From Escherichia coli (lineage in GTDB: Bacteria > Pseudomonadota > Gammaproteobacteria > Enterobacterales > Enterobacteriaceae), in the NCBI RefSeq assembly GCF_045037415.1, contig NZ_CP173438.1: DNA of 64,000 bases. The stretch is one strand, 5' to 3'. Numbering within the stretch: the stretch's first letter is position 1; every line of letters begins with the position of its first letter. Shown piece by piece: positions 30,901 to 42,900 of this stretch. The position numbers were made by a program.

Positions 30901-33900
30901 TGTGTGGGTCTGTGGGGCTACCTGCTGTATCAGGGCGTGGTCGATCCGCTGGGCGGCGTTAAGAGCCTGTGGCCGCTGTTCGGTATTTCCAACCAGATGC
31001 TGGCAGCCGTAGCGCTGGTACTGGGCACCGTTGTGCTGATTAAGATGAAGCGCACCCAATACATCTGGGTAACTGTTGTTCCGGCTGTATGGCTGCTTAT
31101 CTGCACCACCTGGGCGCTGGGCCTGAAACTGTTCAGCACCAACCCGCAGATGGAAGGCTTCTTCTACATGGCAAGCCAGTACAAAGAGAAGATTGCTAAC
31201 GGTACTGACCTGACGGCGCAGCAGATTGCCAACATGAACCACATCGTTGTGAACAACTACACCAACGCGGGCCTGAGTATTCTGTTCCTGATTGTGGTGT
31301 ACAGCATCATCTTCTACGGTTTCAAAACGTGGCTTGCGGTGCGTAACAGCGACAAACGTACTGACAAAGAAACACCGTACGTTCCAATCCCGGAAGGCGG
31401 CGTGAAGATCTCTTCGCACCACTAACCGTGTTTAGCCCCGCTTCGGCGGGGCTTTGTTCTTATCAGAGTGAACTATGTTTGGTAACTTAGGACAGGCAAA
31501 AAAATATCTCGGCCAGGCGGCGAAGATGTTGATTGGCATTCCAGACTACGACAACTACGTCGAGCATATGAAGACCAACCATCCCGACAAGCCGTACATG
31601 AGCTATGAAGAATTCTTCCGCGAACGCCAGAATGCGCGCTACGGCGGCGATGGTAAAGGCGGTATGCGCTGTTGTTAATGGAGAGAGCATGAACCCGATT
31701 GCAGTTACCCTACTCACCGGTTTTTTAGGCGCAGGCAAAACCACCCTGCTGCGCCATATTCTTAACGAACAACACGGCTACAAGATTGCCGTGATTGAAA
31801 ACGAATTCGGCGAAGTCTCCGTTGATGATCAACTGATTGGCGACCGCGCCACGCAGATCAAAACGCTGACCAACGGCTGCATCTGCTGTTCGCGCTCCAA
31901 CGAGCTGGAAGACGCACTACTCGACCTGCTGGATAATCTCGACAAGGGCAATATTCAGTTCGACCGTCTGGTCATTGAATGCACCGGCATGGCCGATCCC
32001 GGCCCGATTATTCAGACCTTTTTCTCCCATGAGATTTTATGCCAGCGTTACCTGCTGGACGGCGTGATTGCGCTGGTGGATGCGGTACATGCCGATGAGC
32101 AGATGAACCAGTTCACCATCGCCCAGTCACAAGTGGGCTACGCCGACCGTATTCTGCTGACTAAAACCGACGTCGCAGGCGAAGCAGAAAAACTGCGTGA
32201 ACGCCTGGCGCGCATCAACGCCCGTGCACCGGTCTACACCGTCACCCACGGCGACATCGACCTGGGCCTGCTGTTCAACACCAACGGTTTTATGCTGGAA
32301 GAGAACGTCATCAGCACCAAACCGCGTTTCCACTTTATCGCGGATAAACAAAACGATATTTCGTCGATTGTGGTGGAACTGGATTACCCGGTAGATATCA
32401 GCGAAGTTTCCCGGGTGATGGAAAACCTGCTGCTGGAATCGGCGGATAAACTGCTGCGTTACAAAGGGATGCTGTGGATTGACGGCGAACCTAACCGCCT
32501 GCTGTTCCAGGGCGTCCAGCGCCTCTACAGCGCCGACTGGGACCGCCCGTGGGGCGATGAAAAACCGCATAGCACGATGGTGTTTATCGGGATTCAGTTG
32601 CCGGAGGAAGAGATTCGGGCGGCGTTTGCGGGGTTGAGGAAGTAATTATGGATGATGGCCGCCATGTGGCGGCCTGAATTATTTTTTGTTCTGATCGCGC
32701 AGCATCGCTTCACGTAAAATTGCGTTCAGGCGAGTTTGATAGCCTTTACCAGGTCGCTTCAGCCATTCCATCACATCAGCATCAATACGCACCGAAGCCT
32801 GGGTTTTCAATGGCCGATAAAACTTACCGCGTTCTGCGTTAGACCATTGCTCATCGCTGGAAGGCGGGATATCACTGTAATCAATATCTTCGTCGAATTT
32901 ATTCGCCAGTGCCTTCAGTTCGGCCTCATGCTGCACATCGAGTGTAGAGGGTGTCCCTCGTTTATGTTTAACCATGCTCATAGCGGCTCCTCTCTTTACG
33001 ATCTGCTTTTCGTGCACTGATGATTCGAATAATTTCATTTCCGCTTTCGAAACGGATGGTATGCGCAACCAGAATAACCACGATACCGTGAACCAGGCCG
33101 ATAGTCTGCCAGCGATACTCACCGTTTTCTATGCGATCTTGCTGTGACAAATGTTGTGGATCATCAAACACTAACACCGCATCTTCAAAGCGGATGCCAT
33201 GTTTCACCCGATTACTTTTGGCCTTGTTTGCATCCCATTCAAACTCCATTGGCATAGTTGCCATCCCTAATTGTATATACAAAAATGTATCTACAATTAT
33301 TCTGCAATTATAGCGTTGATGTTGGAAATAGCATCACGTTTTGGATAATCAACCATGAAATTGACAATGAGTAAGTTGGACTTGATTCATCCAATAGAAT
33401 TTCTCGCCTGACATGGCACACTAAACACCTCGCTGTCGTTAAGGGATTACCGTGAAAAACTATAAAGTTATTACCCCGCTTTTTCCTACCTATGCACAGG
33501 TTAAAGCTATGATGAAAGCCGTCTCAGGCTATTCCCTGAAAGCGGTACGCAATATGATTACCGCCATTCGCGATCAAACCGGTACGCCGCAAAAACCCGT
33601 TGACTGGTCGGAACCTGACCTGTGGATCAGCGAACGCTTAACGGGCGAAGATGCCGACATCGCCCGTCGTATTTGGGATACAGATAATCACATATTGAAC
33701 CCGCGCCACAGCTACGGCTGCTACTTATTCCTCAACTATCCCCAGTTTGAGCTGATGGAAAGCACGCCAGATGATACCTGGCAGCCCACCTCGCGCGGGC
33801 AAAAATTCCTGCAAGATGACGAAAAAACGCTGCGTTCACTGGATGACCAGGAAGGCATTCTGCAACTGCTTGAGCTGCTGGCTGGCCGAGAAATGTCGCG

Positions 33901-39900: not shown

Positions 39901-42900
39901 CAGGCACTGGCAATGTATTCCCGCATTGATGCCACCAACTTTGAAGATATTCAGCAATCGGTAATAGAAGTTAAAAACCATCTCGATTTGTTGGGGCAAG
40001 TCTTTTACGAATTTGACAGTCGGGATTATTTTAGTGGTGAGCCACAAGCGCAATTATCCTGCCTCAACCGCGCGGCGGAATTTGTTCTGCGTACCCAGAA
40101 AGTTGAACGTCGTTTTATGGGACTGGTTAAACGCATGAAAGCCGCCTACGACGTCTGCTGCGGCAGCGAAGCATTATCACAGACAGAACGTGACTATATT
40201 CACTATTATCTTGCTGTTCGTTCAATTGTTTTCAAACTGACGAAAGGTGACGCACCGGATGTTACCCAGATGAATGCACGCGTTCGTGAAATGATTGCAG
40301 AAGCGTTAAAAGCTGATGGCGTAGAAGAAATTTATTTTCTTGGCGATAAAAAAGCGGAATCCATCGATATTTTTGACGAAGATTATCTGGCGCGAATTAA
40401 CAAGATCAAACTTCCGGCAACGAAGATCCAGTTATTACAAAAATTACTGGAAAAAGCGATCAGCGACTTCAAGAAAGTGAACCAGTTGCAAGGGATTAAC
40501 TTCACCCGCCGCTTCCAGGCGATTATAGATCGTTATAATGAGCGGCGAGAAGATGATGTACTCAACGGTGAAGAATTCGATACATTCAGTCAGGAAATGA
40601 CCGATATTATCTATGATATTAAAACCGAAATGGGCACCTGGGCCGATTTAGGCATTGATATTGAAGAAAAAGCCTTTTTCGACATTCTTGCTCATATGCG
40701 CGATAAATATCAGTTCACCTATGACGATGAAAAAATGCTGTCACTGGCAAAAGAGATGAAAAGCGTGGTTGACAACACATCTAAATATCCTGACTGGAGT
40801 AAACGCGATGATATTAAAGCGAAACTGAAAGTTGAACTTATTCTGCTTCTACACAAGCATAAGTTCCCGCCAGTAGCGAATGATGATGTTTATATGGGTG
40901 TGCTGGCACAGGCAGAGAATTTTAAAGAACACCATATGAGTTCTTTAAATTAATTATGAAGGCCGGATACACTTTGTTATCCGGCCATTCTGAATTAACG
41001 TTAATTTCCCTTCCAGATCTTTCCAGTAATGCTTTTATTATTTTCTATTTTTAGCTGGACTTTTCCCATATTTACTGATGATATATCCAGGTATTTAGCG
41101 CGATGCGGATGTGTTGGCGCACACCCGCACCGCTCATCACAATCACTATTTATAGGGAATAGCAGTTATGACTGACACGCATTCTATTGCACTACCGTTT
41201 GAAGCAGAAGTCTCCCCGGCAAATAACCGTCAATTAACCGTGAGTTATGCGAGCCGCTACCCGGATTACAGCCGTATTCCCGCCATCACCCTGAAAGGTC
41301 AGTGGCTGGAAACCGCCGGTTTTGCCACCGGCACGGCGGTAGATGTCAAAGTGATGGAAGGCTGTATTGTCCTCACCGCCCAACCACCCGCCATCGAAGA
41401 GAGCGAACTGATGCAGTCACTGCGCCAGGTGTGCAAACTGTCGGTGCGTAAACAAAGGCAGGTGCAGGAGTTTATTGGGGTGATTAGTAGCAAAACGCCA
41501 CGCTAAGTTTCTCTCCCCTTCCCCACACGGGAAGGGGAATTTTCCCCCTCACTCCACATCCTCCCTGCGTAACCCAATATCCCTCAACCGCTCATCACTC
41601 ATCTGCTGTAACACTCGTCGGGTCTGCATTTGCCGCCGCCAACGCCTCACCGCCTGCCAGAGTTGCACAAGTCTGATAAACGGCGTTTTGGCTTTGTTTT
41701 CGTAAAATTCCATCTGCTGCCTCCTCATCTTTCAGAGGCTTCATCATCCGTCTTCTGGCAGTTCACAATACAGATGCAAATATTAGTTTTATTTAACATA
41801 CAGACAGATTAAAACAGCATCTGCATCCGGTTTTTTAGCCTCATCTGTACCGGTTTTTCTCTCTGTATGGTCCAAATAAGGAATACAGCATGACGCGTTA
41901 TCAACATCTGGCGACTCTACTTGCCGAGCGGATTGAGCAGGGGCTGTATCGTCACGGGGAGAAATTGCCGTCGGTGCGCAGCTTAAGTCAGGAGCACGGC
42001 GTCAGCATCAGCACCGTGCAGCAGGCGTACCAGACGCTGGAAACGATGAAGCTCATCACTCCGCAGCCGCGTTCGGGGTATTTTGTCGCACAACGTAAAG
42101 CCCAGCCGCCAGTGCCGCCGATGACGCGTCCGGTGCAGCGCCCGGTGGAAATTACCCAGTGGGATCAGGTACTGGATATGCTGGAGGCGCATAGCGACAG
42201 TTCCATTGTTCCGTTAAGCAAAAGCACGCCGGATGTCGAAACGCCCAGCCTGAAACCGCTGTGGCGGGAGCTAAGCCGGGTGGTGCAGCATAATCTGCAA
42301 ACCGTTCTCGGTTATGACTTGTTAGCCGGTCAGCGAGTGTTGCGAGAGCAGATTGCCCGCCTGATGCTCGACAGCGGCTCGGTAGTCACCGCCGATGACA
42401 TCATCATTACCAGCGGCTGCCATAACTCGATGTCGCTGGCGTTAATGGCGGTGTGTAAACCGGGCGATATTGTCGCGGTCGAATCCCCCTGTTATTACGG
42501 TTCGATGCAGATGCTGCGTGGCATGGGCGTGAAAGTGATTGAAATCCCAACCGATCCAGAAACAGGCATCAGCGTTGAAGCGCTGGAACTGGCGCTGGAG
42601 CAGTGGCCGATTAAAGGCATCATTCTGGTGCCAAACTGTAATAATCCGCTGGGATTTATTATGCCGGACGCGCGCAAACGGGCCGTTCTCTCTCTCGCTC
42701 AGCGTCATGATATTGTGATTTTTGAAGATGATGTCTACGGTGAACTGGCAACGGAGTATCCGCGCCCGCGGACCATTCATTCCTGGGATATCGACGGGCG
42801 AGTGCTGCTGTGCGGCTCGTTCAGTAAAAGTATTGCACCTGGCCTGCGCGTGGGCTGGGTCGCACCGGGGCGCTATCACGATAAACTGCTGCATATGAAA

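What the first reader, a model, noticed from the sequence alone, without database searches (positions are those of the whole stretch)
32646..41548. Variable immigration-control island between yjiA and yjiS with non-K-12 content
The 8.9 kb between conserved yjiA and yjiS carries a BrnT/BrnA-like toxin-antitoxin pair, a 388-aa Mrr-like nuclease, a type I R-M system in hsdM-hsdS-hsdR order, and symE. As I recall K-12, mrr abuts yjiA, the hsd genes run R-M-S (type IA EcoKI) and yjiT-mcrC-mcrB sit between symE and yjiS. Here symE is followed after 42 bp by yjiS, so mcrBC is absent and the rest is replaced. This is the known defence-island hotspot; the combination TA + Mrr-like + M-S-R type I system may be an uncharacterised allele.
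Basis: partly seen in the sequence, partly recalled or inferred. Interest (0 to 1): 0.75.

Follow-up and report, generated by a model that had tools for sequence, protein, structure and literature searches.

The report
Known type ID restriction island, E. coli
This stretch is the well-known "immigration control" defence island of E. coli in the version carried by ST131, Nissle 1917 and ATCC 25922; it is real and differs from K-12, but it is common and already described.

Summary
Between yjiA and yjiS lie brnT-brnA, a 388-aa Mrr-type nuclease, hsdM-hsdS-hsdR, and symE with its antisense RNA symR. No mcrBC, yjiT or EcoKI gene occurs anywhere in the window.

The suggestion that this is an uncharacterised allele does not hold. 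The window is 100% identical to ST131 strain EC958 over 45 kb. Nissle 1917 and ATCC 25922 carry an identical island. At least 80% of it is present in 789 of 5,426 complete E. coli genomes. The type I system is EcoMII of Forde et al. 2015, a type ID (StySBLI-like) enzyme. A 2025 review already describes types IA, IB and ID, Type IV genes, and brnAT, symER and rpn at this locus.

Two points are new here:
- **Recognition site.** Forde's main text gives AAC(N4)CTTT for EcoMII, but its Table S5 gives RTAC(N4)GTG. ATCC 25922 has the identical island and no EcoMIII at thrW (its location in EC958), and shows only RTAC(N4)GTG. Target-recognition-domain homology agrees. RTAC(N4)GTG is therefore the likely site.
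- **The "Mrr".** It shares only its catalytic domain (31% identity) with K-12 Mrr. It belongs to the untested PADLOC candidate family PDC-S02, usually found beside type I R-M or BREX.

Novelty: already known. Interest: low.

The parts
32657..32674 (+). G+C-rich hairpin followed by a T-run just after the yjiA stop; left edge of the variable segment
   Evidence: Terminator-like site with a 7-pair G-C stem. K-12 homology ends at 32645.
32679..32981 (-). brnA, antitoxin of a type II toxin-antitoxin pair (100 aa, WP_000063148.1)
   Evidence: Pfam BrnA_antitoxin PF14384, E 8.1e-17. RefSeq annotation of identical DNA.
32968..33255 (-). brnT, RelE-fold ribonuclease toxin (95 aa, WP_001295743.1); first gene of the pair, overlapping brnA by 14 bp
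   Evidence: Pfam BrnT_toxin PF04365, E 9.7e-25. Near-identical solved structure 7VD7_A at E 5e-53, and Brucella BrnT 3U97 at E 4.5e-4.
33452..34618 (+). 388-aa Mrr-type nuclease. The N-terminal 215 aa are a conserved helical part plus a winged helix. The C-terminus is a PD-(D/E)xK Mrr_cat domain. Member of PADLOC candidate family PDC-S02.
34682..36301 (+). hsdM, type I methyltransferase subunit (539 aa, WP_001029745.1) = M.EcoMII
   Evidence: PADLOC MTase_I, E 3.6e-193. 24% identical to EcoKI HsdM. Same protein accession in EC958.
36291..37595 (+). hsdS, specificity subunit (434 aa, WP_000535012.1) with two different target recognition domains; overlaps hsdM by 11 bp
   Evidence: PADLOC Specificity_I, E 2e-154. 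This allele is in 425 of 5,426 genomes; others keep only the conserved regions (query positions 463-697 and 1216-1305).
37604..37623 (+). Terminator-like hairpin after hsdS, separating the hsdMS unit from hsdR
   Evidence: 7-pair stem with 6 G-C pairs. Consensus match only.
37690..40953 (+). hsdR, restriction/translocase subunit (1087 aa, WP_000058884.1)
   Evidence: NCBIfam TIGR00348 at 470.7 bits against a cut-off of 284.55. Pfam HSDR_N, SWI2_SNF2, T1R_D3-like and T1RH-like_C. 25% identical to EcoKI HsdR over 219 aa. Only a partial match to EcoR124I.
41075..41090 (+). LexA-box-like CTG-N10-CAG upstream of symE
   Evidence: Pattern match CTGATGATATATCCAG. Function is inferred from the SOS control of K-12 symE (own knowledge).
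41097..41173 (-). symR antisense small RNA
   Evidence: Rfam RF01809 at 83.1 bits against a gathering score of 61.
41168..41506 (+). symE (112 aa)
   Evidence: NCBIfam NF010128 at 215.9 bits against a cut-off of 132. 90% identical to K-12 SymE.
41507..41548 (.). 42-bp convergent junction between symE and yjiS, holding a CCCCTTCCC...GGGAAGGGG hairpin. It stands in place of the 7.6 kb (mcrBC, yjiV, yjiT) of K-12.
   Evidence: Sequence read. K-12 alignment breakpoints at 41485 and 41544.

Best explanation
The interval is the type ID version of the E. coli immigration control region. This is a recombination-exchanged cassette between the conserved genes yjiA and yjiS. It is identical to the one in ST131 (EC958 'EcoMII'), Nissle 1917 and ATCC 25922. 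It carries four independent defence or addiction modules.

1. **Type I restriction-modification enzyme of the StySBLI family.**
   - HsdM2-HsdS methylates adenines on both strands of a bipartite site.
   - With HsdR added, the complex translocates and cuts DNA that carries unmethylated sites. This step is the established type I mechanism, inferred here.
   - The site is most likely RTAC(N4)GTG, with six base pairs between the two methylated adenines.
   - It is probably not AAC(N4)CTTT, as the main text of the original paper says.
2. **A nuclease gene 63 bp upstream of hsdM on the same strand.**
   - It has an Mrr-type catalytic domain and a different, conserved N-terminal winged-helix region.
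   - It probably acts as a Type IV-like enzyme against modified or otherwise marked foreign DNA. This is inferred and untested.
3. **brnT-brnA**, a ribonuclease toxin and its antitoxin.
4. **symE with its antisense RNA symR**, which is shared with K-12.

mcrBC is simply not part of this cassette.
For: **Identity and frequency.**
- Window 18917-64000 matches EC958 with no mismatch over 45,084 bases.
- The same six protein accessions occur in EC958, Nissle 1917 and ATCC 25922.
- ATCC 25922 is identical at the DNA level from 24825 to 49957.
- At least 80% of the island is present in 789 of 5,426 genomes.

**Literature.**
- EcoMII has hsdM-hsdS-hsdR order, HsdR 92% identical to StySBLI, and an adjacent 'Mrr'.
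- A review describes types IA, IB and ID plus Type IV genes and brnAT, symER and rpn at this locus, with type ID at 12%.

**Not type IA or IC.**
- HsdM is 24% and HsdR 25% identical to the EcoKI subunits.
- HsdR gives only a partial hit to EcoR124I.

**Recognition site.**
- In Table S5 of the paper, the RM.EcoMII knockout loses RTACNNNNGTG/CACNNNNGTAY. The RM.EcoMIII knockout loses AACNNNNCTTT.
- ATCC 25922 has this island and no type I genes at thrW, where EC958 carries EcoMIII. Its methylome contains RTAC(N4)GTG and no AAC(N4)CTTT.
- The second recognition domain of EcoMIII HsdS is 30% identical (E 1e-24) to the AAC-reading domain of EcoKI HsdS. The island's HsdS gives only 18% identity at E 5e-4.
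- RTA*C(N4)GT*G spaces the methylated adenines by exactly 6 bp, which is the type ID value.

**Nuclease and other modules.** Searches support the nuclease. Searches support the toxin-antitoxin pair. Searches support symE and symR.
Against: - I could not compare HsdM or HsdR directly with StySBLI, EcoR9I or KpnAI sequences. Type ID membership therefore rests on the published 92% figure and on the methyl-adenine spacing.
- The main text and figure legends of Forde et al. assign AAC(N4)CTTT to EcoMII. My reassignment depends on that text, rather than Table S5, being the mislabelled part.
- I checked ATCC 25922 for EcoMIII only at the thrW site, not genome-wide.
- Restriction activity (as opposed to methylation) of this system is not reported in the papers I read.
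- Nothing tests the activity of the Mrr-type nuclease or of BrnTA.
- The promoter and terminator scan is no better than shuffled sequence, so the operon structure is only suggested.
Confidence: 0.9

Rival explanations
1. The island's type I enzyme recognises AAC(N4)CTTT, as the main text of Forde et al. says. On this reading the column labels of Table S5 are the error.
For: The main text, the Fig. 1 legend and the discussion all pair EcoMII with AACN4CTTT. With methylation on A2, an interval of 6 is possible if the first T of CTTT is the partner position (inference).
Against: - ATCC 25922 carries the island with identical DNA and shows no AAC(N4)CTTT motif, only RTAC(N4)GTG.
- ATCC 25922 has no type I system at thrW, where EC958 carries EcoMIII.
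- The HsdS of the other system (EcoMIII) has a domain clearly homologous to the AAC reader of EcoKI, and this island's HsdS does not.
- Table S5 states the opposite of the main text.
Confidence: 0.1
2. The 388-aa nuclease is a working partner of the type I enzyme rather than an independent Type IV enzyme. It might be a second effector or a guard, triggered when the type I complex is blocked by phage anti-restriction. PrrC embedded in EcoprrI would be the analogy.
For: - It lies 63 bp upstream of hsdM on the same strand, with no terminator-like site between them.
- Of six distant homologues, four lie next to or inside type I loci of different HsdR types. These are Kushneria, Thiocystis, Serratia fonticola and a JGI metagenome contig. 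A fifth lies next to BREX.
- PADLOC derived its PDC candidates by 'guilt by embedding' in BREX, DISARM and type I loci.
Against: - Orientation and position relative to the hsd genes vary: upstream, embedded, downstream or convergent.
- One homologue has no defence neighbour at all.
- K-12 Mrr is also adjacent to hsd yet acts independently (own knowledge).
- Clustering in defence islands does not by itself show functional coupling.
Confidence: 0.15
3. The Mrr-type gene is an ordinary orthologue of EcoKMrr with the same specificity (m6A- and m5C-modified DNA), as assumed by Forde et al.
For: The annotation as 'Mrr'. The Mrr_cat domain and conserved catalytic residues. A winged-helix element in the model, as in EcoKMrr.
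Against: - Only the catalytic domain aligns, at 31% identity. The N-terminal 215 residues, which would carry specificity, give no alignment and no Mrr_N Pfam hit.
- The gene lies on the opposite strand to K-12 mrr relative to yjiA.
- No NCBIfam family matches it.
Confidence: 0.2

Closest known systems
EcoMII of E. coli ST131 strain EC958 (EC958_0076-0078, with 'Mrr' EC958_0079)
   Same: Identical DNA and identical protein accessions, at the same position between yjiA and yjiS.
   Different: Nothing differs. This is the same locus. The only open point is which of the two published motifs belongs to it.
Type ID restriction-modification family (StySBLI, EcoR9I, KpnAI)
   Same: HsdR is reported 92% identical to StySBLI. 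The system sits at the immigration control region. The methylated adenines are 6 bp apart.
   Different: The recognition domains differ, so the target differs. It is RTAC(N4)GTG with a 4-bp spacer, where the three classical members have N6 spacers.
EcoKI cassette of E. coli K-12 (mrr, hsdRMS, symE/symR, mcrBC)
   Same: Same chromosomal slot, same flanking genes, same symE/symR module (92% nucleotide identity), and the same logic of type I plus Type IV enzymes.
   Different: The type I family differs (24-25% identity) and the gene order is M-S-R rather than R-M-S. The nuclease has a different N-terminal region and lies on the other strand. brnTA is added. mcrBC, yjiV and yjiT are absent.
EcoKMrr (Type IV methyl-directed restriction enzyme)
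   Same: Mrr_cat PD-(D/E)xK domain with the D...QxK catalytic residues, and a winged helix upstream of it.
   Different: It is 84 residues longer. The N-terminal 215 aa are unrelated in sequence. No activity data exist. It belongs to PADLOC candidate family PDC-S02.
BrnT/BrnA of Brucella abortus (PDB 3U97)
   Same: Both Pfam families match. The operon is toxin-first with overlapping genes.
   Different: The similarity to the Brucella toxin is distant (E 4.5e-4). The closest solved relative is 7VD7_A.
PrrC embedded in EcoprrI (type IC)
   Same: An extra nuclease gene genetically tied to a type I locus.
   Different: PrrC is an anticodon nuclease lying between hsdS and hsdR. Here the extra gene is a DNA-nuclease fold upstream of hsdM, and no functional link has been shown.

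Membership tests
Type I restriction-modification system | Three subunit genes: HsdM (N6-adenine methyltransferase), HsdS (two recognition domains) and HsdR (nuclease plus SF2 translocase) | tested here: met
   PADLOC MTase_I at 3.6e-193, Specificity_I at 2e-154 and REase_I at E 0. HsdR TIGR00348 scores 470.7 against a cut-off of 284.55. Pfam domains of HsdR. HsdM scores below the TIGR00497 equivalog cut-off (172.8 against 242.75), as expected for a divergent family.
Type ID family (StySBLI-like) | High amino-acid identity of HsdM and HsdR to a family member (about 80-90% or more) | not tested
   No StySBLI, EcoR9I or KpnAI sequence was available to me. Forde et al. report 92% identity of HsdR to StySBLI.
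Type ID family (StySBLI-like) | Six base pairs between the two methylated adenines | tested here: met
   RT(m6A)C-N4-G-T-G with the partner C(m6A)C gives an interval of 6 (motifs; family table). This depends on RTAC(N4)GTG being the island's site.
Type ID family (StySBLI-like) | Subunit exchange (complementation) and antibody cross-reaction with family members | not testable with these tools
   These are the strict criteria. They need experiments.
Type IA family (EcoKI-like) | High identity of HsdM and HsdR to EcoKI | tested here: not met
   HsdM is 24% identical over 396 aa and HsdR 25% over 219 aa.
Type IC family (EcoR124I-like) | High identity of HsdR to EcoR124I | tested here: not met
   Only residues 142-510 match, at E 2e-24. 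The review found no type IC at this locus in the 9,040 genomes it analysed.
EcoKMrr orthologue | Mrr_cat catalytic domain with conserved D...QxK | tested here: met
   Pfam at E 3.8e-29. D278, Q295 and K297 are invariant.
EcoKMrr orthologue | Homologous N-terminal DNA-binding (specificity) domain | tested here: not met
   There is no alignment outside residues 216-383 and no Mrr_N hit. The model does contain a winged helix, so the fold class may be shared.
PADLOC candidate PDC-S02 | Full-length match to the family profile | tested here: met
   PDLC04796 at E 7.7e-207, residues 1-386 against profile positions 1-383 of 390.
PADLOC candidate PDC-S02 | Demonstrated anti-phage activity | not testable with these tools
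   PDC systems are candidates found by embedding in other defence loci. I found no test of PDC-S02.
BrnT/BrnA type II toxin-antitoxin | BrnT_toxin and BrnA_antitoxin domains in adjacent, co-oriented genes | tested here: met
   PF04365 at E 9.7e-25 and PF14384 at E 8.1e-17. The genes overlap by 14 bp, toxin first.
BrnT/BrnA type II toxin-antitoxin | Ribonuclease toxicity neutralised by the antitoxin | not testable with these tools
   Needs an experiment.
SymE/SymR type I toxin-antitoxin | symE coding sequence with an antisense symR RNA over its 5' end | tested here: met
   NF010128 at 215.9 against a cut-off of 132. RF01809 at 83.1 against 61, at 41097-41173 on the minus strand, overlapping the symE start at 41168.

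The most novel reading that the evidence does not exclude
The 388-aa nuclease (PADLOC PDC-S02) may be a distinct, active family of defence nucleases. Its conserved N-terminal region would sense something other than what EcoKMrr senses. Its recurrent placement beside or inside type I R-M and BREX loci of unrelated families would reflect a functional partnership with those systems, for example as a back-up effector when they are inhibited, rather than mere island clustering.
Probability: 0.15. Interest if true: 0.5.

Novelty: already known. Interest (0 to 1): 0.2.

Why it matters
**Limited general importance.** The locus is a textbook defence hotspot, and this allele is among its commonest occupants.

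**Practical value.** The restriction site of this island is a transformation and phage-therapy barrier in ST131, Nissle 1917 and ATCC 25922. The published text and the supplementary table disagree about it. Anyone designing methylation-mimicking plasmids for these strains should avoid or pre-methylate RTAC(N4)GTG rather than AAC(N4)CTTT.

**The accompanying 'Mrr'.** It should not be assumed to behave like K-12 Mrr.

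Tried and rejected
- **Type IA or IC assignment.** Rejected by pairwise comparison with EcoKI and by the PDB search against EcoR124I.
- **Solved structure or curated family for the nuclease.** Only a weak hit to the MspJI catalytic domain and no NCBIfam family.
- **Defence role for BrnT/BrnA in PADLOC.** No hits.
- **Original type ID, immigration-control and Murray review papers** (PMC60208, PMC373321, PMC98998). Not held in the library. Direct family criteria therefore came from later reviews.
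- **Nissle 1917 methylome.** Literature searches found nothing useful.
- **Position of the methylated A in AAAG.** I tried to read it from the paper and its supplements, but the underlining is lost in the text versions.
- **Site counts as evidence for the specificity.** There are 9 RTAC(N4)GTG sites against 15.4 expected, and 15 AAC(N4)CTTT sites against 7.8 expected. I do not rely on these, because a base-composition null is too crude.
- **Promoter and terminator scan.** It gave no more sites than shuffled sequence, so it is used only as a hint.
- **Finding thrW in ATCC 25922.** This took several calls because that assembly carries a large inversion.

Full report
**What is there.**

The ORF listing and the RefSeq annotation of identical DNA give the following gene order:
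- yjiA, ending at 32645
- brnA, 32679-32981 (-)
- brnT, 32968-33255 (-)
- a 388-aa nuclease gene, 33452-34618 (+)
- hsdM, 34682-36301 (+)
- hsdS, 36291-37595 (+)
- hsdR, 37690-40953 (+)
- symR, 41097-41173 (-)
- symE, 41168-41506 (+)
- a 42-bp gap
- yjiS, 41549-41713 (-)

- Pfam gives BrnT_toxin at E 9.7e-25 and BrnA_antitoxin at E 8.1e-17.
- Pfam gives Mrr_cat at E 3.8e-29.
- PADLOC type I subunit profiles match at E 1e-154 or better.
- The NCBIfam HsdR and SymE models score above their curated cut-offs.
- Rfam symR scores above its gathering score.

G+C content dips to 0.33-0.41 over hsdS and the 3' end of hsdR. This is usual for exchanged recognition-domain DNA.

**Comparison with K-12.**

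The MG1655 record shows yjiA, mrr, hsdR, hsdM, hsdS, symE/symR, mcrB, mcrC, yjiV, yjiT and yjiS.

Alignment of the window to K-12 gives these breakpoints:
- Homology at 98.9% ends exactly at the yjiA stop codon (32645).
- A 449-bp island of 92% identity covers symR and symE (41037-41485).
- Homology resumes at 41544, the yjiS stop codon.

So 8.4 kb replaces K-12 mrr-hsdRMS. A 58-bp stretch containing a hairpin replaces the 7.6 kb that holds mcrBC, yjiV and yjiT. tblastn finds no McrB, McrC, YjiT or EcoKI HsdR anywhere in the window.

**Where the window comes from and how common the island is.**

- Window 18917-64000 equals E. coli ST131 strain EC958 with no mismatch over 45,084 bases.
- Nissle 1917 is identical over 20.9 kb.
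- ATCC 25922 is identical from 24825 to 49957.

Among 5,426 complete E. coli genomes:
- 789 hold at least 80% of the 8.9 kb.
- 425 hold this exact hsdS allele.
- 879 hold brnTA plus the nuclease gene.
- 2,111 hold brnTA next to yjiA.

In one strain, brnTA is followed directly by an IS1 and a deletion reaching towards mdtM. Other lineages keep the same architecture with different hsdS recognition domains. They share only the two conserved regions of hsdS. This is the classical pattern of type I specificity shuffling.

**What is already published.**

- Forde et al. 2015 described this locus in EC958 as EcoMII. They reported a 'typical hsdM-hsdS-hsdR operon', HsdR 92% identical to StySBLI (the founder of type ID), an adjacent 'Mrr', and mcrBC elsewhere near GI-leuX.
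- A 2025 EcoSal Plus review surveyed 9,040 enterobacterial genomes. It reports types IA, IB and ID at this locus, with type ID at 12%. [quoted passage not shown]

My own comparisons fit a family other than IA or IC.
- HsdM is 24% and HsdR 25% identical to the EcoKI subunits.
- HsdR gives only a partial match to EcoR124I.

I could not compare directly with StySBLI. The original papers are not held in the library.

**A discrepancy about the recognition site.**

The main text and legends of Forde et al. pair EcoMII with AAC(N4)CTTT. They pair the second type I system, EcoMIII on GI-thrW, with RTAC(N4)GTG.

Their Table S5 shows the reverse:
- The RM.EcoMII knockout has 'NA' for RTACNNNNGTG/CACNNNNGTAY and keeps AACNNNNCTTT at 0.992.
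- The RM.EcoMIII knockout has 'NA' for AACNNNNCTTT/AAAGNNNNGTT and keeps the RTAC motif.

Three independent lines favour the table.

1. **ATCC 25922.**
   - It carries this island with identical DNA and identical proteins.
   - Its thrW island holds vat and no type I genes; in EC958 that site carries EcoMIII.
   - Its methylome is GATC, CCWGG, RTAC(N4)GTG and GGTCTC/GAGACC. This is reported as fully consistent with REBASE and includes no AAC(N4)CTTT.
2. **Recognition-domain homology.**
   - The second recognition domain of EcoMIII HsdS is 30% identical (E 1e-24) to the first domain of EcoKI HsdS, which reads AAC. The match includes shared motif blocks.
   - The island's HsdS gives only 18% identity at E 5e-4.
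3. **Methyl-adenine spacing.** RTA*C(N4)GT*G has one possible adenine per half-site and a spacing of exactly six. That is the value tabulated for StySBLI, EcoR9I and KpnAI.

I conclude, at about 85-90% confidence, that this island's enzyme recognises RTAC(N4)GTG.

**The 'Mrr'.**

Forde et al. treated the gene as K-12 Mrr. The comparison does not support that.
- Only residues 216-383 align with EcoKMrr, at 31% identity. The first 215 residues do not align.
- There is no Mrr_N Pfam hit and no NCBIfam family.
- The protein matches PADLOC profile PDLC04796 (PDC-S02) over its full length at E 7.7e-207.
- PDC entries are candidates proposed because they are embedded in BREX, DISARM or type I loci. 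I found no test of PDC-S02 itself.
- Homologues at 52-94% identity occur across Enterobacterales, Halomonadaceae, Chromatiales and beyond.
- In a 41-sequence alignment the N-terminal region is as conserved as the nuclease domain. D278, Q295 and K297 are invariant. These align with the D...QxK residues of EcoKMrr.
- An AlphaFold model (pLDDT 82.8) shows a helical N-terminal part, a winged helix and a PD-(D/E)xK domain.

Genomic context of six distant homologues:
- Four lie next to or inside type I loci with different HsdR types: Kushneria, Thiocystis, Serratia fonticola and a metagenome contig.
- One lies next to BREX.
- One has no defence neighbour.

The most likely reading is an independent Type IV-like nuclease of unknown target. 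Functional coupling with the type I enzyme is possible but unsupported.

**How it most likely works.**

- **Shown by sequence:** all subunits and catalytic motifs are intact, and the hsdM and hsdS genes overlap by 11 bp.
- **Shown in the literature for identical DNA:** more than 99% of sites are methylated in EC958, and hsdM transcript levels exceed those of dam.
- **Inferred from established type I biology:** M2S methylates hemimethylated sites, and R2M2S translocates and cuts DNA that carries unmethylated sites.
- **Suggested only:** the nuclease gene and hsdMS may form one transcription unit. The gap is 63 bp with no hairpin between them. A hairpin follows hsdS at 37604-37623, so hsdR may have its own promoter (which is no better than shuffles).
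- **Other modules:**
   - brnT-brnA is a toxin-first ribonuclease/antitoxin pair. A near-identical toxin structure exists in the PDB (7VD7).
   - symE keeps a LexA-box-like site at 41075 and its symR antisense RNA.

**Verdict.**

- Novelty: already known.
- Interest: low (0.2).
- Added value: the corrected recognition site, and the demonstration that the 'Mrr' is not an EcoKMrr orthologue but an untested candidate family.

Noticed in passing
Literature: Forde et al. 2015 (PMC4659465), main text versus supplementary Table S5: The paper contradicts itself on which type I system (EcoMII at this island or EcoMIII on GI-thrW) methylates AAC(N4)CTTT and which methylates RTAC(N4)GTG. Independent evidence supports the table, giving this island RTAC(N4)GTG.
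   Followed up: yes
window 5841-6327: 4.8 tandem copies of a 101-bp unit built from REP-type palindromes (GCCGGATGCGGCGTGAACGCCTTATCCGGCCTAC), between yjjV and yjjW. This is a BIME-like array, an ordinary E. coli feature.
   Followed up: partly
window 14139-14462: Three tandem tRNA-Leu genes, which Tandem Repeats Finder reports as a 121-bp repeat.
   Followed up: partly
window 43545-44501 (-): An intact 318-aa Rpn-family recombination-promoting nuclease where K-12 has only the rpnD pseudogene.
   Followed up: no
L015 3665-11604 (EC958 GI-thrW, outside the window): The second type I system of ST131 (EcoMIII, in R-M-S order) lies next to an AbiEi/AbiEii pair. Its hsdS allele is in 519 of 5,426 genomes. 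These include strains whose yjiA-yjiS locus has lost all R-M genes, such as AVS0456 and Ecol_743.
   Followed up: partly
L019, L020, L024-L026 (ATCC 25922, NZ_CP009072.1): This assembly has a large inversion that joins the aspV island to the pks/asnW region. As a result thrW lies near 4.92 Mb in reverse orientation. It may be a real rearrangement or an assembly artefact.
   Followed up: no
window 26646-47548: ST131 (EC958) and ST73 (Nissle 1917) are 100% identical over 20.9 kb, and ATCC 25922 over 25.1 kb (window 24825-49957). The identity extends well beyond the island into the flanking core genes. This suggests recent exchange or shared descent of the whole region among B2 lineages.
   Followed up: no
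Hits H1-H5, H31, H56 (other ST131-like genomes): Several genomes carry IS1 insertions inside the island, in hsdS, in hsdR or near the nuclease gene. The system is therefore being inactivated repeatedly in some lineages.
   Followed up: no
L007 6520-7482 (Kushneria) and L009 11762-12416 (Thiocystis): The type I loci that neighbour homologues of the nuclease carry further embedded genes. One has a TIR-domain protein between hsdS and hsdM. The other has a nucleotidyltransferase/HepT pair after hsdM.
   Followed up: no
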